Shown: piece after piece, positions 1 through 12,332 of the stretch
Numbering within the stretch: position 1 is the first letter of the stretch
Layout: each line of letters begins with the position of its first letter
Source: Naegleria gruberi
Lineage: Eukaryota
Assembly (NCBI GenBank): GCA_000004985.1
Contig: GG738849.1
DNA length: 64,000 bases
Direction: 5' to 3' (one strand)
Position numbers and translations under genes: made by a program
Notes under the pieces: generated by a model
What the model saw: the letters and a program-made list of their open reading frames with translations, nothing else
Databases searched by the model: none
Told to the model about the DNA's origin: nothing

Positions 1-264
1 TACCATCATGTATGGTCATTTCCCAATACTTATTATTATCCAAGTTACCCACCAACGAACAACACCTACGACACTATCTTGTTACAAAATAGAAACCACT
101 TCCTCTCCAACACGACTATTTTCAATTCCTTAATATCCTTTTCATCAACATTCTCTGTGAGGAAAGTCCACGCATATGGAACACCTCTCTTATTGGAAAG
201 TATTCAAAATGAAATTGAGTTAAATTTCATGAAGTATGAAGGTAACCCGATCGTGATTGTTTAG
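1..264 (+). CDS. Possible 3'-terminal coding fragment of a gene that starts upstream of the window. Its predicted tail is low-complexity and Y/P/T/N-rich (...YPSYPPTNNTY...EGNPIVIV*).
   Basis: Frame 1 is open from nt 1 to the TAG at 262-264 (88 codons with no stop). There is no recognisable domain. The six-frame track only shows the part from an internal Met (79..264). It could instead be UTR. Confidence 0.3.
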   Translation, partial: YHHVWSFPNTYYYPSYPPTNNTYDTILLQNRNHFLSNTTIFNSLISFSSTFSVRKVHAYGTPLLLESIQNEIELNFMKYEGNPIVIV

Positions 265-403
265 ATAGTGCTTCCTCCTCTAGTACCCTATCAAGTCACA
301 AATCAACATACAAATGTTGTAGTCTGTGGGATTCTCTTTTCAAAAAAAAGTAACAATCATTATCGTTGTCTAGTTGACTTGAATTGTTATTAGTTGATAC
401 AAA

Positions 404-2632
404 ATGTTTAGAAAGGGATTTCTGTTACTGCTAATTCTTTCACTGTTGGTGATAGCTGGTTTTTACACACAGTCAACTGTGGCGACTCTAGTTAACTCAA
501 ATACTTATCCAAGTGCAAATGTAATTTCTACGAGTGATGGGTTTAAAATGTATTGGAGATTATTGGCAGGAAATGGCACCAATTCCATTATTGAAATTGC
601 AATCATTGCTACTGGATGTGCCAGTGGATGGGTTGGTTTAGGAATAGATCACGACGTTTCGAGTGGTATGTCAAATGTTGATACAGTGATGGCAAGGTTT
701 GTACGAAATATTTCACATTATTTATAATTTGATGATGAAACTTTTATTATCCGTATGATGATGATGTTTAGATATACTGGATCAATTGATATCAAAGATA
801 TGTACTTGGCTACAAATTCACGATCAGCTCCTATTCAAGATACTATTGACAATTTGATTTTCAAAGATGGTGGAGTGAGTGGAAGTGATCTTCATGTGAT
901 TTTCAGAAGATACTTGAATACTGGAGATAGTTCAAGAGACAAAATTATTAGAAACGAAACTATGAGGTTCAGTTATGCCTACTCTTTATCTTCCAATGAT
1001 TTCCAATCATATCACGATAAGACTGGAAAGTTCACGACCAATTTGCTCTTGATTGCTACAAATTCATCAAGTGGAGGCACCACAACAGGCACTACAAATA
1101 ATCTCTATAATTTCCATCTGATTGTTACGGGAATCATGTTTGTGATTGTACTTTCATTGGGCATTGTCTTTACATTTATTCCAGTTTTGGTTAAACCAAA
1201 TCTACTGACAGATTTGATTTTATATAGAAGATTTTGCAAAGTTTCGACAAACAAATACTTGGGAGGAATGATTAATTCATTGGCTGACTTGACCATTGGA
1301 GAAGTTTTAATCGTGTCATCATATTGGCTCATTCTAGCTGCTTGGGCAGTTTATGGAGGTATTTCGGCAAGCTCATTCCCAGCTGGAAGAGCTTTTGCTT
1401 ATGTGAATGTTTGGAATTTTAGTTTGATACTATTCCCTTTGAGTAGATATTCAGTTTTACTTGCCCTGTTCGGTATTTCATTTGAGAGAGCTATCAAATT
1501 CCACAAATGGTTGGGAAGATCAACTCACTTCTTTGTTACTGTTCACTTCCTTGCCATGTTGATTGAAAATGCAATGATCAATAATGCTGCCTATTTGTGG
1601 TCAATGTCAACAATTAATTATCCTCTCTTGGGTTTTATTTCTTGGATTTTATTGAGTATTCTAGTGATGGGAACTTTTGAGCCAATTAGAAGAAAGTTGT
1701 GGGAACTTTTCTATGGTTCACATATTATTCTTGCTGTTCTAGTGATTGGATTATCCATTGCACACGGTAGAGGATGGATTACATTACTCCCTTATATGGC
1801 TGCAAGTATTCTCTTGTATTTGATTGATTTGCTATTCAGATGGGTATTTGGCTTTGGAATTCCAACAAAGGTTGTTGGTATTAGTTATAATGAGGATTGT
1901 AGTGTAACAACCGTTACTTTCCAGAAGAGATTTTTGACCTTCCTTAATATTGGAGGAAAACCTGGAAAGGGTTCATTTATTTTTGTTTATTTGCCTTCAG
2001 TTTCTCCTTTCGAATATCATCCATTTACTGTGAGTAGTTACAAGGAATTGGATAAGAAGGGAACCTATGAATTTACATGCCATGTCAAGAATCATCATGG
2101 TAAGGGTTATGGAAACAAGTTGGCCAATCTTGCCAAATCCAATCCAGATGTTAGTCGTCTATTTGCCAGAGTTGAGGGAGCATTTGGAAATCTCTCCATT
2201 CCTATTCAACATTATCAAACCGTCATCTTAATTAGTGGTGGTATTGGTATTACATTTGTTCATTCACTCCTCGATGGTCTAGTTCAGAGAGGAGAAGACA
2301 AGTCAAAGAAGATTCACTTGTGGTGGTCATTCAGACATCCCTCAATGTTGGATTTATTCCCAACGATTAAGAATAATTCATCTATCGAAAAGGAACTTTT
2401 CCTCACTGGAAAGGACACTGAGATGGGTTCTCATTCTCACAGTGACATTAAAATGTCAAGAATGGACGTTAAACAATTACTGGAAAAGGTGAAGAGTAAT
2501 ACCAATGATTCCTATGTTGGAGTATTCGTCTGTGGACCAACTCAATTAATTTCCACTGTACAAAATGCAATTTTCGATGTGAATGGTGGAGGTACTAGAT
2601 TCCATCTCCACAAGGAAGTATTTGAATTTTAA
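404..2632 (+). CDS. Secreted DOMON-domain ferric reductase / NADPH-oxidase-like transmembrane flavocytochrome. It has 2 exons (404..696 and 772..2632) and encodes about 717 aa.
   Basis: Exon 1 carries a signal peptide (MFRKGFLLLLILSLLVIAG) and DOMON-like motifs (FKMYWRL, GWVGLGI, GMSNVDTVMAR). The exon-1 ORF and the 625-aa ORF are in the same frame, separated by a stop. Removing a 75-nt intron (697..771, AAG|GTTTGT...TGTTTAG|A, length a multiple of 3) rebuilds an AGA codon and fuses them. The Met run MMMM at 755 is intron sequence. Exon 2 continues the DOMON domain and then has about 6 TM helices. There are two bis-heme His pairs 13 residues apart (FHKWLGRSTHFFVTVHF and GSHIILAVLVIGLSIAHG). 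The FAD motif HPFTVSS is at nt 2018-2038 and the NADPH motif ISGGIGITF is around nt 2231-2257. The C-terminal motif is FVCGPTQL. AATAAA overlaps the TAA stop at 2631-2636. Confidence 0.8.
697..771 (+). other. Intron of 75 nt with GTTTGT donor and TTTAG acceptor.
   Basis: This is the only GT...AG pair that keeps the two same-frame ORFs in frame and completes the DOMON domain. Confidence 0.7.
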
Positions 2633-2735
2633 TAAATTCATGAAATATTCTACTAAAACTCCCTCAATCAGAAATATATTAACAAACAGCCATTCAGAGC
2701 TATAGCTCTCTTCAATATTTTCCAACCTTAAAAAA

Positions 2736-3675
2736 ATGAAACTCTATGATCTACCAACGGAATTGTTGCAAGAAATTTTCAGTTTTCTCTTTAATTTGAG
2801 GGAGAGCAAGAAGACTCTCTATAATTCGCTTATTGAGGCAAGACAGTCGCTTCAACAAATTTGTCAAATGCAACAAGTTTGTACTACTTTTCGATCATCG
2901 GAGGAAATTATTGAATTATTTAATGATTTAATGTGGAGTTTATTCTGCAAGAGTTTTCCCTCTGCACTGATCGAAAATCTAGTCGAATTGTGTGGTGATG
3001 AATTTGAGGAGGAAATTCTAGAGCCAATTCGGAAGAAACATTTGATGAGGAAATACATTACTGGATTGATGAGAAAAATTGGAAAATTATCTTCATCAAG
3101 CGATAATTTAAAAGTATTATTTCTTGGTAAATATTAAATTATATAATATTTCAATTTTTATTAAAAATTTGGAAATTTATTTAGGAAATGGAAAGACAAC
3201 TTTATTGAAAAAGCTATCAGGTGGCAGATTTAAATCAATTGTAGGGTCCATTAAGAAAAAGATTAATCAAATTGGAAACGTTTCATTTGTATGCATGGAA
3301 CCAACTAATGAGACAACTTGTTTCCGTCTCATTTCCACCATGGAAAATAGATTTGATTGTTTTGTGATTGTAAATTATCCAGTGGATAATCGTGTGGGTA
3401 GTAATATAGTGCTACAATATCCTATGGATTTTAAAGATATTTCTGTATCAGTTGACTTTCCAATAGTTATTGTAATGAAGAATTGTTTTGTTTTGGGAGT
3501 GAGAAGTTTATTTTCTGATTTCAAGAATGTATCAATTATTGTAACTGAAGATGATGAAAGTGAGTTTTCAACAGGTAAAATTTTAGAGGAGGTTTATTTC
3601 AGAACATTCAAAACTAAACAGAATTTGCTGGATATTCTAATAGAGGAGGCAAAAAGTTTACAAAAATATGATTGA
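2736..3675 (+). CDS. F-box protein with a C-terminal degenerate Arf/Arl-like P-loop (pseudo-GTPase-like) domain. It has 2 exons (2736..3126 and 3185..3675) and encodes about 293 aa.
   Basis: The N-terminus has a canonical F-box (MKLYDLPTELLQEIFSFLF). The first ORF ends at ...KVLFLG|GTAAAT. A 58-nt intron (3127..3184, acceptor TTTATTTAG|G) joins it in phase 1 to the second ORF, rebuilding a GGA codon. The junction gives KVLFLGNGKTTLLKKL, an Arf/Arl/Sar-style G1 motif (GKTT[IL]LxKL). Downstream, NVSFVCMEPTNE aligns to the Arf ISFTVWDVGGQD region with DxGGQ lost. FDCFVIVNYPVDNR aligns to GLIFVVDSNDR. PIVIVMKNCF aligns to LLVFANKQD with NKxD degenerate. The stop is TGA at 3673-3675. Confidence 0.65.
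3127..3184 (+). other. Intron of 58 nt (GTAAAT...TTTAG).
   Basis: The two ORFs overlap in different frames (2736..3137 and 3124..3675). Only this splice restores one continuous frame and creates the P-loop. Confidence 0.6.
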
Positions 3676-3684
3676 AATTATTGC

Positions 3685-3800
3685 AAATTTCTCATCAATT
3701 TTCCAACAAAAATTCAACTCTCATTAAGAAAGCAGTTTATTGTGGGCCAATAATTGAGATAGGATTTGTGTAAAGTTGGGTCTATTGGATGGCTCTTGGT
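3685..3800 (-). pseudogene. Truncated duplicate of the 3' end of the TKL kinase gene (last ~25 codons plus ~40 nt of 3' UTR). It is a gene-fragment relic or short dispersed repeat.
   Basis: About 116 nt at 3685-3800 are ~94% identical to 8391-8506. On the - strand copy A reads ...YQEPSNRPNFTQILSQLLAHNKLLS* against ...WDQEPSNRPNFTQILSQLLTINELLS* in the intact gene. An in-frame TGA sits at the upstream edge of the homology, and no kinase sequence lies further upstream. Confidence 0.6.
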
Positions 3801-3997
3801 ATCATGATTACTTTCAACCAACAAGCTGCACAAGGCCCAGCAACATTCTAAAAAGGCTAGAGCAATTCAGTTTATTTAATATTCCAAAATTATTCGCTAA
3901 AAAATGAGTTTTAAACAAGCTTCTATTATTTAACTCAATTTTTCTAAAGTCTCCCATAATAACATTTCATACACAAATCAAAAGTATATAATAGAAT

Positions 3998-6900
3998 TTA
4001 GTAATTTCTATTTGCAATCATTTGTTTGAGAATTTCCTTCTTGCTCAAATTGGTCGTTGGCTTTAACCAAGACATGTTATCATAATTTTTCTTCAAAAAG
4101 CTTGACAAGACACTTCTACTTGGGAATAAATCTTTCAAATACATAATGGAAGCAATTTCGTATGGAGTAAGACCAAAGGCATTAATTGCATTAACATCAG
4201 CTCCATACTTTGTGACCAAAAGTTTGGCAAGTCCAATATTTGATGGATCCAAACAGGCAAGATGTAATGGAGTCATTAAACGGAGTGTTGGAATATTGAT
4301 AAGCTTTGGTTGTTTGTCGAGAACTGCTGTTATGATTTCTGTAGGTATACCAGTACGTTGGCTGGCCAAAATTGTGAGGCAAGTATATCCATTATCATCT
4401 CTGTACAAGAGATCTTCAGGTGACATATTTTCAATCAAGGTAAGGACGAATGGAACTGATCTCACCATGCTTGCCATCAATAAATTCAAAATGCTTGTCT
4501 CAATAATTCTTGGAGATTCAAATAACATAGCCTTTTGATCAAGTTCAAATGCTGGAACAGTTTGATTTAAATCAGAGATTTGACCATTGTAAATCATTTG
4601 AACGAGAGTAGCTTGTCTATTAAATTTGACTTCATCAGTAGAATCCAAAAAGTTGCAATAAGTTTTGGAGAAATCTTCTGAATATGGATCAGGGGTAGAT
4701 TTGGCGGATTGCATGTAAGTGATTCCTCCAAATACTTCTCTGAACTTTCCTAAACAAGTACACAAAGTTACAAGATTATCGATCAGTCTGATATCATCAT
4801 AGCTTGAAGTTAACATGGCAATAAGCTTGTCGGTAGTGATTTGAACCTTTTGCTTTTCATAATCAGGATGTGACTTTGGTTTAGTAAAGTATCTAAAGAA
4901 GACTTGCAAGGCTCTAACTTTTTGATCTGTAGAAAGCTCTTCTGTGCAGTTTGAGTCAGCTTCCACTTTCTTCAAGGTTTCTTCCAAATTATCAAGGCCT
5001 TGGAAATCTGAAATTTGAGACAGACTCTGTGCTAATAGTTCAATTGATCCATTTTCATAGAATAATTTGGCCATATAAAGATCTAAAAGGATGGTCTTGT
5101 CAAGATAGTATCCATTGATCTTACTACATTTACCAACCATGACTGAGAACATGAACTCTTCAAAGACGTGAGGATTCTTGAAGATATTCATACCAAAGTA
5201 TAACAAGACGTGACACCAGTGGAAGCTACCATCATAAATGATAGAATCTGGGTGGAGAAGGCTTTCTTCAGACTTGTTGTTATGATAGATGAGATATTCT
5301 TCAATAACTCTCTTTTCTTCTATGTGTTCGTAGTTGTAGGTATCTATAGCAGAATAAGGAATTTTGGATTTGATGCAATAATCAATAATTTCCTTCTTCT
5401 TAATGATGGATAATCCAGGGGATTGGGTCAATAATTGATTGATCAATGGTAGGAATTCTAATCTTTGTTCAGTCATTGCAGTTATTGGTCCTATCAAGTC
5501 CTTGTCAAGTTGGGCAACAAGAATGGCTCTGATAACCAATCTCTTTTCGTCTTCTCTATCGAGCATTGGACGAACAGTTAGAGCACCAGTAATATCGGCA
5601 GGGGTTTCTTGATTATCATCGTCATTATTTGTAAAGCCATCTTTTAAAGTATCTACTACCTTTTGAGGTTTACCTTCAAATAAGAAATAGAACTTGTCAT
5701 AAAACTTCTTCAAAACATCCTTGGCTGACTCAATATCAGCTGTTGTACTGGTATAAACGTTGGTCATCTGGGTATTGGAATCTGAATTTTCTCTTGTTTT
5801 TCCCAAAAAACTGATTTCCTTCATATTTGGGAAGAGTGTAGCAAGATATCCAATTTCAGTACCAAGAGAATATACATAATCACCATATGGGGCTAACTTG
5901 ACCTTTTTAACATTGTTAGCAAAGCAGGATCTGAGGAGATTCTTACTAACACTATCAAATTCTTGCAACTCTTCGAAATCGAAATATGATTTAATGGCCA
6001 AAGGATCCTTTGAAAGCCCATCAAGTTTTCCAGCATTAGGATAGAAGGATCTATCATTTGAGAAAACAAATGAAAGATTATCGAGTACAAAGTTAACAAA
6101 GGTAATCTCCTCAATATGACTACCACATACAGTACCTTTAACCAAGCTAGGATCAACAATCTTTGGAATTGTCTTACCATTCTCCAACAAGATATGTAAC
6201 AATATATTGTTCAAGAAGTTATAACTTTGGAAATTGATTAAGCTGATGGACTTGAATAACTTGTAAGTTTCCTCATGCCATTCACTGAACAGATCAGGAA
6301 GGGCTTTCCTAAGGGACAAACGAACCAAAGCGCAAAGATAAGTTTCGTATGTGTAAACAGGAGAGTATGCTAGAGTGTGAGGAGTCAAAATAAACTCGTG
6401 ATTCATTCTTGGAATACCCTCTGGGAAGTATTTTTTGTAAAGTTCAGATGGTTCCATATTGTCAAAGTTATCATTCAACAAATCCAACCCAATTTCTGTA
6501 GTGTCAACTGTTAATGGTAGTTTAGATTATGATAGCGACTTAAAATACTTACGTTCTAGAACTATATCGGCTCCTTTTGGACGTTTTTTGATCTTGTCCT
6601 TCTTGCTTGATTGGGTGACCAGACGTGAAAAGTTGGAAATCATATAATTATTATTCATAGTTTGTTGATTGAGTTCATCAACTAAATCTGCTTCAGTAGT
6701 TTCTTCATCTTGTGCTTCTTCATCTTGACTTTCTTTTTTGTCAACTTGAAGGAAAGTATCCTCTTCTACATCAACTTCAAGCGTTTCTTCTTTTTCTAAC
6801 TTTTCGTCAGTTTTAGCTTCCTTCTTGGTTTCTTCATCAACTTCAATATCTAAATCATCCACGTTATTGTTATAATAATTGAGTCTATAGGATGGAATAG

Positions 6901-8048
6901 AACCTCCAATGGTAAAAGTTCCAGTTTCGGTATCTGTTTTCAAAAGGAACATTTCACTCCAATTGGATTTCAAGCATCCATAAACCTTTGGGCAATTTTT
7001 GTAGATGCCTTCATCTTCAAAGTGATCCAACTTTTTGGAGTGGTACCTCTTTTTAGCATTGATAAAACAGAGCAAGTGAGCATATTTTGACAAGAAGAGG
7101 TCAATATTATTTTCTGGTTCAAATGCATTAGTTCTTGGTGAATAGAAACGAATGAAAATGGAAGCAATATTCAAAGAATCGCATTCATTCATTAAATATT
7201 CTTGCATTCTTGTGTTAAATGTCTTTGAAATTGCACGATACTTGTGATATGTTACAAATACTGAATCAATGGTTTCAGTACAAAAGTTATTTGGAGTATT
7301 GGAAAAATACTTTTTAAACTGGAATATGGTACTAGATTCTCTTTCGAATGGAAGTTTGCTAGATGTTGGAATCATGGTAATAATATGGAATTTCAACTCG
7401 AAATCAAAATGTTCTCTAATAAGTTCACATAATTCTTCCAATTTCTCAGATGACTCATCAGCGCTTTTTTCAACAATAGTTTTTTCTATTAATTCAATTA
7501 TTAATCATTGTAGTTCATAAAGAGATAACAAACCTTCACTCTTCTTTCTATCTGCATCAGTCCAGATCTTACTCAAAGGTGTCATTTTCTCACCTTCAGC
7601 AGCTTCAAAATCAACAGAGGATGAATAAACCTTCGGATCAAGATTCTACAACCATCATCAGTTGTGTGATATTAAATTTGATCAAAATTATTACAAAATC
7701 ACAAGGAAAAACAAACCTCAACTTTTGGAAATTTAGCCATTCCATTATTCCAATAGGCTTGGGCATAATTAGTATATTTTGATTTATCCTTGTGATATTG
7801 TGGAATTGTTTCTATATTATGATCATTTAATAATATTCATATATTAACAACATAATAACATGATCGGATGGAATGATAGGAATCACACATTAATATGTTC
7901 ATATATAATAATCTTCATTAGCAATCTAACAACACATTCAAAAAAACAAACCTTTGATCGGGGTTAAAATAGCCTCTCCCACACGATCATGAATCATCTC
8001 CAACAAATTACTAGCACTGGTAATATCCAACCCGAAAGGACCGTTCAT
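3998..8048 (-). CDS. Large protein of about 1250 aa with C-terminal ankyrin repeats and no recognised N-terminal domains, encoded in 5 exons. The exons in + coordinates are 3998..6507, 6553..7485, 7534..7645, 7717..7811 and 7952..8048.
   Basis: The 829-aa ORF (3998..6487) and 304-aa ORF (6527..7441) are in the same frame, split by a single TAA. A 45-nt intron (6508..6552, GAAC|GTAAGT...ATTAACAG|TT) removes the stop with matching phases (1+2). The C-terminus has ankyrin repeats (TPLHLACLDPSNIGLAKLLVTKYGADVNAINAFGLTPYEIA). Three further 5' introns, all with GTTTGT donors, are 7486..7533 (48 nt, acceptor AATAG), 7646..7716 (71 nt, acceptor TTGTAG) and 7812..7951 (140 nt, acceptor ATATAG). These link phase-compatible open exons back to an ATG at 8048-8046 (MNGPFGLDITSASNLLEMIHDRVGEAILTPIK...). 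The alternative start is the ATG at 7585 (MTPLSKIW...). The stop is TAA at 3998-4000. The 3' exons are well supported (0.75). The 5' exons come from splice-signal and phase inference only (0.45). Confidence 0.65.
6508..6552 (-). other. Intron of 45 nt (GTAAGT...AACAG) removing the in-frame TAA between the two large ORFs.
   Basis: It has a perfect GTAAGT donor, the reading frame is identical on both sides and the splice phases are compatible. A second in-frame acceptor 12 nt downstream (CTACAG) is also possible. Confidence 0.65.
7486..7533 (-). other. Intron of 48 nt (GTTTGT...AATTAATAG).
   Basis: It joins MTPLSKIWTDADRKKSE to EKTIVEKSADESSEKLEELCEL... with phase 1 on both sides. Confidence 0.5.
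7646..7716 (-). other. Intron of 71 nt (GTTTGT...TTGTAG).
   Basis: The acceptor lies exactly at the start of the open frame NLDPKVYSSS.... The upstream 95-nt exon is open in the matching phase. Confidence 0.45.
7812..7951 (-). other. Intron of 140 nt (GTTTGT...ATATAG).
   Basis: It joins the ATG exon (8048..7952, ending AAAG|GT) to the 7811..7717 exon, and phase 1 plus 2 completes a GAA codon. Confidence 0.4.
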
Positions 8049-8077
8049 TCTTCTCCCTCTTGATGATTTGGATTTTT

Positions 8078-8269
8078 TTATGTTTTGATTTTGTGAAGGA
8101 AATTGGCACCATGTTCGATCAATGTTCCATAAAACGCATTACAATGGGATGTTGTGACGTAATTATCATGATTATCTTGGTGTTTATTGGGAGTTTCATT
8201 TTCTTTTGAATTTTCTCTTGAGATAATCAAAATATTGTGCTCAACACTCAAAAAAAAGACATCTTTCAT
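8078..8269 (-). CDS. Small 63-aa ORF upstream of the ankyrin gene. It may be an upstream ORF or 5' leader, or it may not be a real gene.
   Basis: It runs ATG...TAA (MKDVFFLSVEHNILIISRENSKENETPNKHQDNHDNYVTTSHCNAFYGTLIEHGANFLHKIKT) and ends 30 nt before the 8048 ATG in another frame. It has no recognisable motifs. Confidence 0.15.
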   Translation of the reverse strand: MKDVFFLSVEHNILIISRENSKENETPNKHQDNHDNYVTTSHCNAFYGTLIEHGANFLHKIKT

Positions 8270-8390
8270 TATAAGAATTTCATCCTAAGGCTTATTGCCA
8301 TTGGATCAATGACATTAGTTATGAAGGATCCAAATATACAAGTGAATAAAGCAATTAACATCATTAGGGTATTGTATTGTAAATAAAATC

Positions 8391-8506
8391 AAATTTCTCA
8401 TCAATTTTCCAACAAAAATTCAACTCTCATTAAGACAGCAGTTCATTGATGGTCAATAATTGAGATAGGATTTGTGTAAAGTTGGGTCTATTGGATGGCT
8501 CTTGGT
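8391..8506 (-). repeat. Copy B of the ~116-nt duplicated segment. This is the genuine 3' end of the kinase CDS plus its 3' UTR, and the master copy of the fragment at 3685-3800.
   Basis: It aligns with 3685-3800 with about 6 mismatches. Weaker similarity extends about 15 nt further (8371-8390 against 3671-3684). Confidence 0.7.
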
Positions 8507-11487
8507 CCCATGTTTGCTTCATCAATTCAATAAAGAACTCGACTGATTTGAGCAGTTTTTCATTTGGTCCATCGGTTGTGAAATAGTTTCTATCTGAATC
8601 CCTCATAAAACTATTCATCCACTCACTCAATTGAATTCGTGTTGTAAAAGGAATTTTAGGTCGAAGTCCATCATTAGAAACCTTGAAAATAATATTAAAA
8701 GCATTGACTCTCTCATTTTCTAATGGAGGAGAGAAATAATGAATCTTTCTCGATTCCTCATTTAAAAATGGATTTTCCTCAAAGAATAATTCAAACATTA
8801 CAATTGCAAATGAATAGACATCAATCTTATGCAAGAGATCACTCTGTTTTTTCATGTCAGAGTTAATCATTTCTGGACTCATATAGAGCAAAGTTCCGAC
8901 TGTAGCAGTGTAGAGAGAATGTCTTGATCCATTATTAATGGTTTTTGAAAGTCCAAAATCACAAACTTTTGCCTTTCCAGAAGAATTGATGAGAATATTT
9001 GCAGGTTTTAAATCTCTAATTTTCAGAGTTGGTTAATAAATATATTTTAGGAACTATAAACTTACCTGTGAATAATTACTGGATTGAGTCCGTGTAGATA
9101 TTTCATTCCACTATTTGTCGTTCCATTAATTATATTAGAATCCATCAAAAATTTGAAACATACCTTGCGACATCAATGAGAATTCTTAATTTTTGTTTAA
9201 AGGAAATATTCTCCCTTCCACACTTTGACTCGTAGATAATTTTGTCAAGACTTCCCTTGTCCATATATTCAACAACCATGAATTTCTTAGTCTCTGTTAT
9301 GCAAATTCCATAAAAGGACACAATGTGAGGATTTCTCAAGTTGACCAAAAGTGCAACTTCTTTTTCAAATTCTTCCTCATCTGTATTTTCTGAATTTTGA
9401 TGAAATGATTTGACAGCAACATCTGTAGAGACATTCCATTTAGCTAAATACACTGATCCAAATCCGCCTTCAGCAATCTTTTTGCTAAATGTTAAATCCT
9501 CAGAATTAATAATAAATTTGGAAATTTTCTTGAGCTTGGTTCTTGGAGTGTTATTTACAGAAAAGTCAGCACTCAGAGACATGGAATCTCTTGTATGGAC
9601 CTCCTCTCCATATGATTGAAATGGACTCTCAAGAAGCTTACGTCCAATATCTTCATCAGCTTGTTCTCTCTTGGTCAATATCGAAACTCTCGCTCTCATG
9701 TACGAAATTTTCTTTACAATCTTTGAGAACAAAAATCCAAAGACACCACCCACTATTACTGCAATTAATAATCCTAAAATTGATAAGCTCACTACCATTG
9801 CTGTTGGAAAACTCTTCACACATTCACTCTCTCCAAGTTCATATCCACTCGGACAATCTCTAAATACCAAATCAATCGATAGACTTTCTGTAATTAGTGA
9901 AAGTGTAAGACTATTTCTGTGAGGAATATCGCGAAAACGTTTTCTTATTTGCAGTCCAATGCCATTAGGAAGGGCAAATTTCGTAATTTCAAAATCATAA
10001 AAGAAATCAAATATTTGAATTCTCTCTTGCATGAGTGCAAATTCGTTTCCCAAAACATCGGCCATTTGTAAAAATTTTAAATCCATTCTCTGTCCAAAGA
10101 AAACTTGAATGCTCTTTGGGTTTTTCACGACACTACTAATTTTACCATCAATGTCAAAAAAAGTAATTTCGAAATCTAAGATTGATTTGATGGGGCTTGC
10201 AAAGCTATTTCCATAAACCGATGCCTGATTGCCATGTATGGTAATATTATTGAGAAAGTTCAAAGTGTCAACATGGGATGTGACAAATAAGCCAGCTCCA
10301 GCAAAGGATGCAATATTATCTATGATAGTGGTATTCTCAACATGGAAAGAAGTTGAGAAATAAAAACCACCTCCACCCCAAGTAGCTCTGTTTCCACTAA
10401 TAACAGTTGATCCCAAGAAACCAAGTTGTTTCACTGAAAATGCGCCGCCAGTTCCTTTGCAATCTACGAACTCTGTTGAAATTGTACTATTACTCATTGA
10501 ATCCAACGAGTTCTCTATAAATATACATTCATTAATTATTAGGCCACTCACATATTCTGTGCCACCACGATAGAAGAGAGCTCCTCCTGATACACTTGCC
10601 CTATTTTTCTCCAAGAGGCACTTGTGAATGCCTCCTACTCCTATATTATTAAAATAAAGAGCTCCTCCACTTCCACCAATTGCCTTATTAGCAATAAAAG
10701 AAGAGCTCACAATATCCAAGATTTGGATTCCAGTCCCAGATATGGCTCCGCCATTGGTTGTTTTACCATTATTGATAAAAGTAGATGATCCACAAGATAA
10801 CGACTTTACATTTTCTACAAATATTGCACTACATCCATTATCTTTGAAATTACTATTTAACAATTCGACACTGGAAGCATGACTAATATGAATCAAGCTT
10901 TTTTGTCCAACTCCACAACGATTTTCTACCATTTCTAAATCTTTCAATGAAATAGATGATGAATATCGAATAGTAAATGCATTTCCTCCCATATCTTTCA
11001 CTTTCAATCCCTTCAAATTAACAGTAAAAACAATTTCTAAATCAAATACGAAATAATCTGTAGAAACGGCATGTTCAGAAAAGCCAATATATGAATCAAT
11101 AAAGTTAAATTGTTGAATGGATCTCAAATTCATTTTCCAATGCAATCCAATAGAAAATTCAACTCGGGACATGTTAAATAATTGGACGTTATTGATATCA
11201 AACTTGTTGTGTGCTTCCACAACCATTGATGTATTTACAATCTCTACAATGTCAGCCGATTCAATCGTTAATCCTACATAAATTAATTGGGAATTGTGAA
11301 TATGAACAGTAATTGAAGCATAAACCTCCACATCCGAAAGAACTGAATTTGACACACTGAGTGCAAAAGTTGGATTGACCAAACAATTCTTCACTCTAGA
11401 ATTTTGAATTTTGTAAAAAGGAGCTTGAACAAAATTCATTTCCACATTCTCCAATCCAACATTATATAAATTACTCAATATCAATTC
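8430..11487 (-). CDS. Receptor-type TKL-family Ser/Thr protein kinase with three parts. The large extracellular region contains Chlamydia-PMP-like (GGA[IL] / pectin-lyase-fold) beta-helix repeats. After it come a single TM helix and an intracellular kinase domain. The resolved exons are 8430..9015, 9066..9110 and 9164..11487. The 5' end runs into the 50-N gap.
   Basis: The 779-aa ORF carries repeated GGAISGTG, GGALYFNN, GGALFYRGG, GGAFSVKQ, GGGFYFSTS and AGAGLFVTS motifs (around nt 10194-10767). A Cys motif (RDCPSGYELGESEC) and a TM helix (FPTAMVVSLSILGLLIAVIVGGVFGFLF, around nt 9727-9804) follow. The kinase subdomain I motif is EGGFGSVYLAKW, and VAVK follows. The ORF ends ...DVAR then a stop, but AG|GTATGT (a 53-nt intron at 9111..9163, acceptor AAATAG) joins it to a 45-nt exon (GMKYLHGLNPVIIH). 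A 50-nt intron (9016..9065, GTAAGT...AATTAG) then rebuilds H-R-D-L-K: HRDLKPANILINSSGKAKVCDFGLSKT...LYMSPE...DVYSFAIVMFELF. The stop is TAA at 8430-8432. HRDLKPAN predicts Ser/Thr specificity. Confidence 0.8.
9016..9065 (-). other. Intron of 50 nt (GTAAGT...AAAATTAG) in the kinase catalytic loop.
   Basis: Splicing creates the canonical HRDLKPAN motif from CAC AG | A GAT TTA AAA. Confidence 0.75.
9111..9163 (-). other. Intron of 53 nt (GTATGT...AAATAG) in the kinase domain.
   Basis: It removes the in-frame TGA after DVAR and yields DVASGMKYLHGLNPVIIHRDLK, which matches subdomain VIa/b. Confidence 0.7.
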
Positions 11488-11537
11488 NNNNNNNNNNNNN
11501 NNNNNNNNNNNNNNNNNNNNNNNNNNNNNNNNNNNNN
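11488..11537. other. Assembly gap of 50 N, the conventional length for an unsized scaffold gap.
   Basis: It is a literal run of n and lies inside the receptor-kinase ectodomain coding region. The frame is open on both flanks. Confidence 1.
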
Positions 11538-11674
11538 TAGATAAACTTCTAGTAAGGACTGTCGAACCCTCTTGCTTCCAAAATCAAAATACCAACAAGG
11601 ATAGTTTCCATCAAGAATCCTCCTAACATTGACTCGACCGTTATATTTTACATATTTAACACAGTTATTTGGTA
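11538..11674 (-). CDS. Open reading segment on the far side of the gap, probably an exon of the receptor-kinase ectodomain (...RILDGNYPCWYFDFGSKRVRQSLLEVYL, reading into the gap). The true 5' acceptor is unresolved.
   Basis: The - strand frame is open from the TGA at 11675-11677 down to 11538, with no Met. One candidate acceptor is GTTAG|G at 11623-11624. It is on the same strand and orientation as the kinase ORF that resumes at 11487. Confidence 0.35.
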
Positions 11675-11879
11675 ATCATAACAATACATTGGATTGCCAT
11701 TCTTTCTATCTTATCGATTGGGTAGACGAAGAGTTACAGCAGTGATTTGTGAATGGTGCAGTAACCAACTTTCAAGTAGGTGGTTGACTTGTTAACATGA
11801 AAATCAAACCAGCTCTATTCACAATTCCTTCCTATCATTTAGGAATCCAATCTTTGTGCTACTTTTTGCAACACCTTAC

Positions 11880-11939
11880 TGGCAGGACAATCGATAATCT
11901 CAAAATGAGAAGTAGCAATATTACACGTTCAATTGCCAT
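11880..11939 (-). CDS. Candidate first exon of the receptor kinase encoding the signal peptide (MAIERVILLLLILRLSIVLP), followed by a GTAAGG donor.
   Basis: The ATG is at 11939-11937 (- strand). A 20-codon hydrophobic leader ends exactly at CCA|GTAAGG. It lies ~150 nt downstream (- sense) of the proteasome gene stop. I could not find an intermediate exon or acceptor to the next segment that keeps phase 0. Confidence 0.4.
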
Positions 11940-12087
11940 GTATTGATTGGTTCAGATTCTTACAACCTCTCATAGATGCTACATCAGTACTATCGCCACA
12001 AACAATATGAAGAAGTGGAAAGCAAAGGTGTAATTCTGTTTAGTTTGTTTTTAATAATAAATATTTTACAGATCATCAGTAGATGAT

Positions 12088-12330
12088 TTAATCGACCATT
12101 TCATCGATCTTCTTTGATGAAGTATCCAATAAATTCAAATAATTTTCAATATCATCATCCTCATATAAAGTGAATTTAAGATCCTTTCCAACAACAGCAA
12201 CTGAACAATTCTTTGTTGTCAATTCTACATTATCTCCAGTTGTTCCTTTAAGGGCCTTCAAGGCATGAACGATAAGATCCTTCCAATCATTTGTGAATGT
12301 ATCGTAATGCTTTTCAAAGTAAGTCTTGGC
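12088..12330 (-). CDS. C-terminal 80 codons of a 20S proteasome alpha-type subunit, partial because it is truncated by the large gap.
   Basis: The - strand frame is open for 81 codons to the TAA at 12088-12090. It reads AKTYFEKHYDTFTNDWKDLIVHALKALKGTTGDNVELTTKNCSVAVVGKDLKFTLYEDDDIENYL..., which aligns to the conserved C-terminal region of proteasome alpha subunits. For alpha-2 the matching region is [28 protein letters not shown]...NIEVGICNE...F..LTP.EVKDYL. Confidence 0.6.
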   Translation of the reverse strand, partial: AKTYFEKHYDTFTNDWKDLIVHALKALKGTTGDNVELTTKNCSVAVVGKDLKFTLYEDDDIENYLNLLDTSSKKIDEMVD

Positions 12331-12332
12331 AC

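What the first reader, a model, noticed from the sequence alone, without database searches (positions are those of the whole stretch)
8430..11939. Receptor kinase whose ectodomain is a Chlamydia-PMP-type beta-helix repeat array
The extracellular part of this single-pass receptor kinase is cysteine-poor and built from at least 6 tandem GGA[ILF]/FxxN-type repeats. That motif defines chlamydial polymorphic membrane proteins and pectin-lyase-fold adhesins. Here it is fused through a juxtamembrane CxxxxxxxxxxC motif and a TM helix to a canonical TKL Ser/Thr kinase (GxGxxG, VAVK, HRDLKPAN, DFG, SPE). Eukaryotic receptor kinases normally use LRR, EGF, lectin or CXXC-rich ectodomains. A PMP-repeat ectodomain on a kinase is an unusual architecture and a likely lineage-specific expansion in this organism. 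A near-identical fragment elsewhere in the window points the same way.
Basis: partly seen in the sequence, partly recalled or inferred. Interest (0 to 1): 0.6.

Follow-up and report, generated by a model that had tools for sequence, protein, structure and literature searches.

The report
Naegleria receptor kinase with PMP beta-helix ectodomain
This is a real Naegleria gruberi gene for a single-pass membrane kinase whose outside part is a bacterial-adhesin-type (Chlamydia PMP-like) beta-helix; this domain combination is rare and undescribed in the papers searched, but it belongs to a small family shared by three Naegleria species, not a large expansion.

Summary

Three points need correcting:
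- The stretch 11538-11939 is not part of the gene. The true N-terminus, including the signal peptide, lies in the 50-N assembly gap and was recovered from a 98%-identical metagenome contig.
- The "near-identical fragment" is a relic of only 24 codons plus the 3'UTR of the kinase. It contains no ectodomain.
- I found no large expansion, only 1-3 members per Naegleria genome.

The organism is N. gruberi NEG-M. The deposited model XP_002681770.1 ("tyrosine kinase") is N-truncated and wrongly fused to two downstream genes. The same domain combination occurs in one Protostelium transcript. PMP ectodomains are already known on Dictyostelium GPCRs and on trichomonad surface proteins. I rate this a new variant of a known kind, of moderate interest.

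The parts
9164..11487 (-). Exon 1, incomplete at its 5' end because of the assembly gap. It covers ectodomain residues 151-712 (numbering completed from L001), the TM helix, the juxtamembrane region and the kinase N-lobe, all in one open frame.
   Evidence: ORF list. tblastn of the composite protein is 100% identical over 11487-9166. Splice donor at 9163.
10213..10848 (-). Canonical PMP repeat zone (residues 364-575). It has 6-7 rungs with [FIL]xxN ... GGA[ILF]-type motif pairs: GGAI396, GGAL424, GGAL451, GGAF497, GGGF522, plus the degenerate GCSAI and AGAGL.
   Evidence: Motif count against shuffles. TIGR01376 best stretch lies here, as does the sub-threshold Pfam Chlam_PMP stretch. These are the invariant columns in the family alignment. 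The model shows three short strands per repeat.
10849..11487 (-). N-terminal part of the beta-helix, with degenerate rungs lacking GGA motifs (residues 151-363). The cap and signal peptide (residues 1-150) are missing in the gap.
   Evidence: The AlphaFold model has strand triplets from model residue 9 onward with pLDDT of 80-97. It aligns with P0002, P0004 and P0005.
9862..10191 (-). Post-helix beta-rich module (residues about 583-692) between the helix and the membrane. It is family-specific, with conserved YGN..AS, P, GQ and D positions.
   Evidence: Model strands 432-541. BLAST of this segment hits only P0001, P0269, P0002 and P0004. Invariant columns.
9820..9855 (-). Juxtamembrane C-x10-C motif (CPSGYELGESEC, C695-C706).
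   Evidence: C695, P696, G698 and C706 are invariant in all four family members. Position.
9727..9801 (-). Single transmembrane helix (AMVVSLSILGLLIAVIVGGVFGFLF, residues 713-737), followed by the basic stretch SKIVKKISYMRAR.
   Evidence: It is the only hydrophobic segment (Kyte-Doolittle >1.8) apart from the signal peptide.
8457..9495 (-). Protein kinase domain (TKL-like), interrupted by two introns. Motifs present: AEGGFG, VAVK, HRDLKPAN, DFG, SPE.
   Evidence: Pfam PF07714 2.7e-53 and PF00069 1.3e-51 over residues 664-975 of the window protein. It is 51% identical to the N. lovaniensis homologue's kinase.
9111..9163 (-). Intron 1 (53 nt, GTATGT..AG).
   Evidence: The spliced product is collinear with P0002. 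The deposited model P0269 uses the same junctions.
9066..9110 (-). Exon 2 (45 nt; GMKYLHGLNPVIIH).
9016..9065 (-). Intron 2 (50 nt, GTAAGT..AG), which splits the HRD codon run.
8430..9015 (-). Exon 3: kinase C-lobe with a conserved insert, ending in the stop codon TAA at 8432-8430.
   Evidence: The C-terminus aligns to the end of P0002.
11488..11537 (.). 50-N scaffold gap. It hides the 5' end of the gene (at least 450 nt of CDS plus the upstream region).
   Evidence: L001 bases 1-1641 have no match in the window.
3684..3813 (-). Relic copy of the gene's last 24 codons plus 3'UTR (QEPSNRPNFTQILSQLLAHNKLLS*). It is not a gene and contains no ectodomain.

Best explanation
The gene encodes a type I, single-pass receptor protein kinase of Naegleria gruberi. 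Its order is: signal peptide, a long right-handed parallel beta-helix of about 16 rungs, a small beta-rich stalk module, a C-x10-C hairpin, one TM helix, a juxtamembrane segment of about 85 residues, and a catalytically complete TKL-type Ser/Thr kinase. The membrane-proximal 6-7 rungs carry the FxxN/GGA[ILF] motif pairs of the Chlamydia-PMP repeat family.

The architecture, the fold class and homology to PMP-repeat proteins are shown here. The mechanism is inferred. I propose that the rigid beta-helix projects from the cell surface and acts as a binding or self-association surface, as PMP-type helices do in bacterial and trichomonad adhesins. Engagement with a ligand, or with a particle surface such as bacterial prey or another cell, would cluster the receptor and activate the kinase by trans-phosphorylation. 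That would couple surface contact to intracellular Ser/Thr (possibly dual-specificity) phosphorylation.

The gene belongs to a small family conserved in N. gruberi, N. lovaniensis and N. fowleri. The family also includes at least one kinase-less receptor-like member, found on an environmental metagenome contig.
For: - The ectodomain, TM and kinase N-lobe lie in a single ORF. The spliced kinase is complete.
- Only two hydrophobic segments exist, the signal peptide and the TM helix, and the ectodomain has 9 N-glycosylation sequons. The signal peptide comes from the 98%-identical contig L001.
- PMP motifs are enriched: 5 against 0.31 expected. TIGR01376 scores 21.8 bits against a cutoff of 15.
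- Exhaustive phmmer with the ectodomain alone finds 350 proteins at E<=1e-3. The top non-family hits are Chlam_PMP/Beta_helix proteins.
- A family profile finds 397 hits at E<=1e-5, and nearly all of the 120 listed carry PF02415 and/or PF13229.
- The N. lovaniensis homologue XP_044549398.1 aligns in one HSP of 1141 columns at 32.5% identity, E 5e-173, and passes Pfam Chlam_PMP. N. fowleri XP_044564237.1 has the same layout.
- FxxN/GGA motifs are known to form beta-helix rungs and to mediate adhesion and oligomerisation in Pmps (PMC10715098, PMC11166332, PMC2997323).
- The CDS is about 7-fold less diverged than its 3' flank between two independent assemblies, and the ORF is intact in both.
- The kinase-less member P0005 is confirmed on its contig.
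Against: - Pfam Chlam_PMP is below threshold for this protein itself (12.2 vs 20.6 bits), and Pfam Beta_helix gives no hit.
- The fold evidence rests on a predicted model. AlphaFold2 is reported to over-predict beta-solenoids for repeat sequences (bioRxiv 10.1101/2024.10.30.621056, seen). Foldseek TM-scores are low (0.2-0.3).
- There are no expression data and no localisation, ligand or kinase-activity data. The signal peptide is seen only in a related contig, not in the window.
- With 5 synonymous and 5 non-synonymous differences, there is too little information to show purifying selection.
Confidence: 0.8

Rival explanations
1. The protein is mainly an adhesion or phagocytosis receptor, not a sensor of a soluble ligand. 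The PMP helix would bind particle surfaces (bacterial prey, or host cells in N. fowleri), and the kinase would locally drive engulfment, as proposed for the Entamoeba transmembrane kinase PATMK. This is a variant of the main explanation and does not exclude it.
Against: There is no direct evidence for this protein. No endocytic or phagocytic motifs were analysed. The family is small, whereas expanded adhesin families are large.
Confidence: 0.3
2. The ectodomain is a generic right-handed beta-helix whose GGA/FxxN-like motifs are convergent. It would then not be a true relative of the PMP repeat family.
For: Pfam PF02415 is below its cutoff on this protein. Only 4 strict GGA[ILF] motifs are present. 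The N-terminal half of the helix has no motifs.
Against: TIGR01376 is above its cutoff. The profile search gives E down to 1e-74 against PF02415 proteins, with an FxxNxAxxxGGA consensus in the joint alignment. Homologues P0002 and P0005 pass PF02415.
Confidence: 0.08
3. The ectodomain is an enzyme, a polysaccharide lyase, hydrolase or epimerase of the pectin-lyase-like superfamily, tethered to a kinase.
Against: Those matches have 5-14% identity and reflect the shared fold. Sequence-level matches are to PMP adhesin-type repeats, not to CAZyme families. No catalytic motif was identified.
Confidence: 0.05
4. The fusion is an artefact of assembly or gene modelling, and the ectodomain and kinase are separate genes.
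For: The deposited model XP_002681770.1 is demonstrably chimeric at its 3' end and truncated by a gap at its 5' end.
Against: The ectodomain, TM and kinase N-lobe share one uninterrupted 779-codon ORF. The same ORF occurs in an independent metagenome assembly. Orthologues in two other species have the same layout.
Confidence: 0.02

Closest known systems
Chlamydial polymorphic membrane proteins (Pmps; PF02415/TIGR01376 repeat family)
   Same: Both have repeated FxxN and GGA[ILV] tetrapeptide pairs spaced about 25 residues apart, with each pair forming a rung of a right-handed beta-helix. Both are displayed on the cell surface.
   Different: Pmps are bacterial type V autotransporters with a Pmp middle domain and a C-terminal beta-barrel. 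This protein is eukaryotic and is anchored by a single TM helix to a cytoplasmic kinase. It has far fewer canonical repeats.
Trichomonad Pmp-like surface proteins (e.g. TVAG_212570; PMC6701047)
   Same: Both are eukaryotic type I membrane proteins with an FxxN/GGA ectodomain and one C-terminal TM helix.
   Different: The trichomonad proteins have a short cytoplasmic tail with endocytic motifs and a conserved ATPITK motif, and no kinase. They also form a much larger family.
Dictyostelium GrlP/GrlQ/GrlR (family 3 GPCRs with PMP-like N-termini; PMC1885808)
   Same: A PMP-like extracellular region is fused to a eukaryotic signalling receptor in an amoeboid protist.
   Different: The transducer there is a 7-TM GPCR, not a single-pass kinase, and the supergroup is different (Amoebozoa vs Heterolobosea).
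Amoebozoan TKL receptor kinases (Dictyostelium GDT and DRK families, PMC1420674) and Entamoeba TMKs
   Same: The layout is the same: signal peptide, lineage-specific ectodomain, one TM helix and a TKL-type kinase.
   Different: Their ectodomains are unrelated (gdt/drk-specific, TIG or CXXC-rich) and are not beta-helices.
Protostelium nocturnum transcript EP01117_P006589 (P0193)
   Same: It has the same domain order: a long PMP/Beta_helix ectodomain, a TM helix and a PK_Tyr_Ser-Thr kinase.
   Different: It has 26 canonical GGA motifs against 5 here and lacks the Naegleria-specific N-terminal and post-helix modules. Its kinase is only distantly related and is truncated in the transcript. It is probably an independent fusion.

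Membership tests
Chlamydia-PMP repeat family (PF02415 / TIGR01376) | Repeated GGA[ILV] and FxxN tetrapeptide pairs at regular spacing | tested here: met
   Five GG[AGS][ILVFM] motifs at residues 396, 424, 451, 497 and 522, against 0.31 expected. Each is preceded by [FIL]xxN.
Chlamydia-PMP repeat family (PF02415 / TIGR01376) | Pfam PF02415 gathering score (20.6 bits) | tested here: not met
   This protein scores 12.2 bits, E 0.25. Homologues score 23.0 (P0002), 46.7 (P0005), 20.4 (P0389) and 17.7 (P0004).
Chlamydia-PMP repeat family (PF02415 / TIGR01376) | NCBIfam TIGR01376 POMP_repeat cutoff (15 bits) | tested here: met
   21.8 bits, E 1.1e-4, two stretches.
Chlamydia-PMP repeat family (PF02415 / TIGR01376) | Significant sequence homology to recognised family members | tested here: met
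   phmmer hits to PF02415 proteins at 1e-25 to 1e-10. The family profile gives E down to 1e-74.
Chlamydial Pmp autotransporters proper | C-terminal autotransporter beta-barrel (PF03797) and Pmp middle domain | tested here: not met
   No such Pfam hit at E<=10. The C-terminus is a TM helix plus a kinase.
Right-handed parallel beta-helix (pectin-lyase-like) fold | Three-stranded rungs stacked into a right-handed solenoid, with structural similarity to solved members | tested here: met
Right-handed parallel beta-helix (pectin-lyase-like) fold | Pfam PF13229 Beta_helix hit | tested here: not met
   No hit on this protein. Homologues P0004 (60.7 bits) and P0005 (26.1 bits) pass.
Eukaryotic receptor protein kinases (TKL group) | Complete ePK catalytic domain (VAIK Lys, HRD, catalytic Asn, DFG, APE) | tested here: met
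   PF07714 scores 181 bits and PF00069 176 bits. VAVK, HRDLKPAN, DFG and SPE are present. The P-loop is AxGxxG.
Eukaryotic receptor protein kinases (TKL group) | Signal peptide and exactly one TM helix between the ectodomain and the kinase | tested here: met
   Hydropathy shows only two hydrophobic segments. The signal peptide is taken from the 98%-identical contig L001, because the window's 5' end lies in a gap. No dedicated SignalP or TMHMM tool was available.
Eukaryotic receptor protein kinases (TKL group) | Placement in the TKL group by kinase phylogeny | tested here: inconclusive
   The nearest non-Naegleria hits are plant STY46/HT1 kinases, plant RLKs and amoebozoan SH2 kinases, all TKL. 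No tree was built.
Eukaryotic receptor protein kinases (TKL group) | Ligand-dependent kinase activity at the cell surface | not testable with these tools
   This needs biochemistry and cell biology.
Trichomonad Pmp-like surface proteins | Conserved ATPITK motif and a short tail with NPx[YF] endocytic motifs (PMC6701047) | tested here: not met
   By my visual reading of the spliced protein printed, there is no ATPITK motif; no pattern search was run. The cytoplasmic part is a kinase-bearing region of about 400 residues.

The most novel reading that the evidence does not exclude
Naegleria, including the brain-eating N. fowleri, may have a dedicated pair of surface receptors built on a beta-helix module of the bacterial-adhesin type. 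One form carries a TKL kinase and one is kinase-less. The arrangement would resemble plant RLK/RLP pairs and would serve to sense contact with bacterial prey or host cells. The ectodomain may have been acquired by horizontal transfer from bacteria or archaea, and the same fusion may have arisen independently in Protostelium.
Probability: 0.15. Interest if true: 0.6.

Novelty: new variant of a known kind. Interest (0 to 1): 0.4.

Why it matters
- It adds a right-handed beta-helix of the PMP adhesin type to the known ectodomains of eukaryotic receptor kinases. It does so in Heterolobosea, a lineage whose surface signalling is almost unstudied.
- The family has a member in the pathogen N. fowleri (XP_044564237.1), currently annotated as a hypothetical protein. 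That member is a candidate contact or adhesion sensor.
- The N. gruberi reference model XP_002681770.1 is truncated and chimeric. It hides both the true architecture and two independent downstream genes.
- The importance should not be overstated. Domain shuffling of protist receptor-kinase ectodomains is common, and PMP-like ectodomains on other receptor types are already described.

Tried and rejected
- Single-sequence AlphaFold gave pLDDT 34.6, so I discarded that model.
- A PDB sequence search with the ectodomain gave only a spurious antibody light-chain hit at E 0.7.
- The first word-indexed homologue search found only the gene itself. The exhaustive HMMER search was needed to find relatives.
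- The afdb50 fold library was unavailable.
- The contig look-up for the N. gruberi paralogue P0270 failed, and the P0272 contig is cut inside the kinase. I therefore could not tell whether those kinase-only models hide PMP ectodomains.
- The kinase-anchored search returned multi-kinase proteins P0274-P0278, which are unrelated in architecture.
- Rfam found nothing in the window.
- No paper mentions PRJEB11402.
- Literature searches combining Naegleria or protist receptor kinases with PMP, beta-helix or pectin-lyase terms found no description of this architecture.
- I rejected the fragment at 3684-3813 as evidence of an ectodomain family.
Full report
WHAT THE WINDOW IS. Only bases 1-12332 are real sequence. 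The rest is N padding, and a 50-N scaffold gap lies at 11488-11537. GC content is about 33%, genes are densely packed, and introns are short GT..AG introns. The protein encoded here falls in the same 90%-identity cluster as XP_002681770.1/EFC49026.1, 'tyrosine kinase [Naegleria gruberi strain NEG-M]'. That record matches the window residue for residue, including positions where a related metagenome contig differs. So the window is N. gruberi NEG-M.

THE GENE. On the minus strand, a 779-codon ORF (9145-11484) is open right up to the gap edge at 11487. It already contains a large extracellular region, one hydrophobic helix and the N-lobe of a kinase. The ectodomain-kinase fusion is therefore read directly from the DNA and does not depend on any splice prediction. 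Two short introns (9163-9111, GTATGT..AG; 9065-9016, GTAAGT..AG) restore ...DVASGMKYLHGLNPVIIHRDLKPANIL..., and the frame runs to TAA at 8432-8430. The spliced product is collinear through both junctions and to the C-terminus with the N. lovaniensis homologue. Pfam gives PK_Tyr_Ser-Thr 2.7e-53 and Pkinase 1.3e-51. VAVK, HRDLKPAN, DFG and SPE are present, and the glycine loop is AEGGFG. The closest non-Naegleria kinases are plant Raf-like STY46/HT1 kinases, plant RLKs and amoebozoan SH2 kinases, which is TKL territory. The HRDLKPAN catalytic loop is of the Ser/Thr type, so the database name 'tyrosine kinase' is nominal (established kinase knowledge).

THE 5' END. It contains no ORF longer than 49 aa, and the proposed ATG at 11939 opens a 26-aa ORF. 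An ENA metagenome contig (L001, 5186 nt) is 98% identical to window 11487-7924, but its first 1641 bases match nothing in the window. Those bases supply 151 further codons starting MLRCPTLQILILLTLCLFFNTTRA, which is a signal peptide. Upstream of that sits a D-arabinono-1,4-lactone oxidase gene. The true N-terminus is therefore hidden in the gap, which must be at least 1.6 kb if the join is correct. Hydropathy of the completed 1134-aa protein shows only two hydrophobic segments, the signal peptide and residues 713-737, the latter followed by basic residues. The ectodomain has 9 NxS/T sequons. This is type I topology.

IS THE ECTODOMAIN A PMP-TYPE BETA-HELIX?
- Motifs. GGAI396, GGAL424, GGAL451, GGAF497 and GGGF522, plus the degenerate GCSAI and AGAGL, each follow an [FIL]xxN motif, with spacing of about 25-28 residues. 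That is 5 matches against 0.31 expected, and only 1 of 5000 shuffles reached 5.
- Curated HMMs. Pfam Chlam_PMP is below threshold (12.2 vs 20.6 bits, E 0.25). NCBIfam TIGR01376 POMP_repeat is above its cutoff (21.8 vs 15 bits, E 1.1e-4).
- Exhaustive phmmer with the ectodomain alone found 350 proteins at E<=1e-3. Three align end to end: P0002 (E 5.9e-30), P0004 and P0005. The remainder hit the repeat zone in multiple stretches, and those tested are strong Chlam_PMP/Beta_helix proteins.
- The full-length relatives themselves pass the curated thresholds: P0002 Chlam_PMP 23.0 bits, P0005 Chlam_PMP 46.7 and Beta_helix 26.1, P0004 Beta_helix 60.7.
- A profile of the four ectodomains retrieves 397 proteins at E<=1e-5. 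Nearly all of the 120 listed carry PF02415 and/or PF13229, with E down to 1e-74. A joint alignment has the consensus FxxNxAxxxGGA repeated throughout.
- Published work shows that the FxxN and GGA motifs of Pmps are the structural signature of beta-helix rungs (PMC10715098, PMC11166332).
- Caveat. AlphaFold2 can over-predict solenoids for repeats (bioRxiv 10.1101/2024.10.30.621056, listed). The sequence-homology evidence is independent of the model.
- Conclusion. The ectodomain is a PMP-repeat-family right-handed beta-helix, divergent enough to fall under Pfam's cutoff. It is not a chlamydial-type autotransporter, because it has no beta-barrel and no Pmp middle domain.

THE FAMILY. The completed protein aligns with N. 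lovaniensis XP_044549398.1 (P0002, 1191 aa, 'hypothetical protein') in one HSP of 1141 columns, at 32.5% identity and E 5e-173. N. fowleri XP_044564237.1 (P0389, 1077 aa) has Chlam_PMP at 20.4 bits plus a kinase, and a 94%-identical shorter copy exists. Further close kinases are N. gruberi NAEGRDRAFT_30678 (47% identical, modelled as kinase only) and N. lovaniensis C9374_008101. I could not recover their upstream DNA. The N-terminal and post-helix ectodomain modules occur only in this family. The invariant positions include the juxtamembrane CPxG...C...P. P0005, on a JGI metagenome contig, has the signal peptide, helix and TM, followed by a 54-residue tail. The next gene begins 315 nt downstream on the other strand, so P0005 is a kinase-less receptor-like member. 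The family is thus conserved across the genus but small. I saw no evidence of a large lineage-specific expansion.

HOW UNUSUAL IS THE FUSION? Among 267 PMP-type proteins retrieved, only two have a kinase. One is the N. lovaniensis homologue. The other is a Protostelium nocturnum (Amoebozoa) transcript, which has 26 GGA motifs, a TM helix and a truncated kinase. Its ectodomain lacks the Naegleria-specific modules, so an independent fusion seems likely, though this is an inference. PMP-like ectodomains on other eukaryotic receptors are documented. Dictyostelium GPCRs GrlP/Q/R have them (PMC1885808). Trichomonad Pmps combine a TM helix with a short endocytic tail (PMC6701047). Planoprotostelium has an annotated 'polymorphic outer membrane protein'. 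Single-pass TKL receptor kinases with lineage-specific ectodomains are known in Dictyostelium (PMC1420674). A 2023 cross-kingdom survey of protist transmembrane kinases mentions neither PMP or beta-helix ectodomains nor Naegleria (PMC10463195). None of my other literature searches found this architecture described.

THE 'NEAR-IDENTICAL FRAGMENT'. Bases 3684-3813 are 91-94% identical to 8381-8519. The fragment encodes only QEPSNRPNFTQILSQLLAHNKLLS* plus about 50 nt of 3'UTR. It is preceded by stop codons and lies between two unrelated genes. It is a relic of a kinase 3' end and says nothing about PMP ectodomains.

MECHANISM (INFERRED). The shown parts are the type I topology, the beta-helix ectodomain of the PMP family and a catalytically complete TKL kinase. 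By analogy with Pmp adhesins, whose FxxN/GGA repeats mediate adhesion and oligomerisation (PMC2997323), and with single-pass receptor kinases in general, I propose the following. The rigid helix serves as a ligand-binding or contact surface, and clustering activates the kinase by trans-phosphorylation. A phagocytosis or adhesion role, like that of Entamoeba PATMK (PMC2211552), is a plausible specialisation. An enzymatic ectodomain is unlikely, because similarity to lyases and hydrolases is at the fold level only.

GENE INTEGRITY. Between the window and L001, the CDS differs at 10 of 2952 positions (5 synonymous, 5 non-synonymous). The 3' flank differs by 2.4% plus indels. Both ORFs are intact. 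This is consistent with a functional gene but too sparse to prove selection.

ANNOTATION PROBLEM. XP_002681770.1 (2154 aa) starts at the first Met after the gap. It leaves the kinase after ...TRIQL and then reads into the ORFs at 6527-7441 and 3998-6487, the latter carrying ankyrin repeats. The model is therefore truncated and chimeric.

VERDICT. The expansion claim and the fragment argument fail. This is a new variant of a known kind: a single-pass TKL receptor kinase that uses a PMP-type beta-helix as its ectodomain. It is present in public databases but is unrecognised there, and it is absent from the literature I could search. Interest is moderate.

Noticed in passing
window 3998-11487 (minus strand): The deposited N. 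gruberi model XP_002681770.1 (2154 aa, 'tyrosine kinase') is chimeric. It starts at the first Met after the assembly gap, leaves the kinase after ...TRIQL, and fuses it to two downstream genes: ORF 6527-7441 and the ankyrin-repeat ORF 3998-6487.
   Followed up: yes
window 3684-3813: A 130-nt relic, 91-94% identical to the 3' end of the kinase gene (last 24 codons plus 3'UTR), sits between two unrelated genes and is preceded by stop codons. Its origin is unknown; it may be the remnant of a lost paralogue or a duplicated 3' end.
   Followed up: partly
window 404-2632 (+): The two ORFs form one gene if a 75-nt GT..AG intron (697-771) is spliced out. The product has a signal peptide, a DOMON domain, the ferric-reductase TM domain, and FAD- and NAD-binding domains. 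It is therefore a NOX/FRE-type oxidoreductase with an N-terminal DOMON domain.
   Followed up: partly
window 11538-12087: These 550 bases between the scaffold gap and the end of a short C-terminal ORF fragment (12088-12330, no Pfam match; I suspect a proteasome alpha subunit, untested) hold no ORF longer than 49 aa. They do not match the DNA upstream of the gene in the 98%-identical contig L001, which carries an ALO oxidase gene there. Either the gap hides at least 1.6 kb or the scaffold join is wrong.
   Followed up: partly
L003 2977-5319: A family member from a JGI metagenome (P0005) has the signal peptide, PMP beta-helix and TM helix but only a 54-residue tail and no kinase. It is a receptor-like protein counterpart of the receptor kinase.
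   Followed up: partly
window 2736-3675 (+): An F-box-like ORF (2736-3137) overlaps the start of a 183-aa ORF with no family match (3124-3675). They are probably one gene with an intron or frameshift.
   Followed up: no
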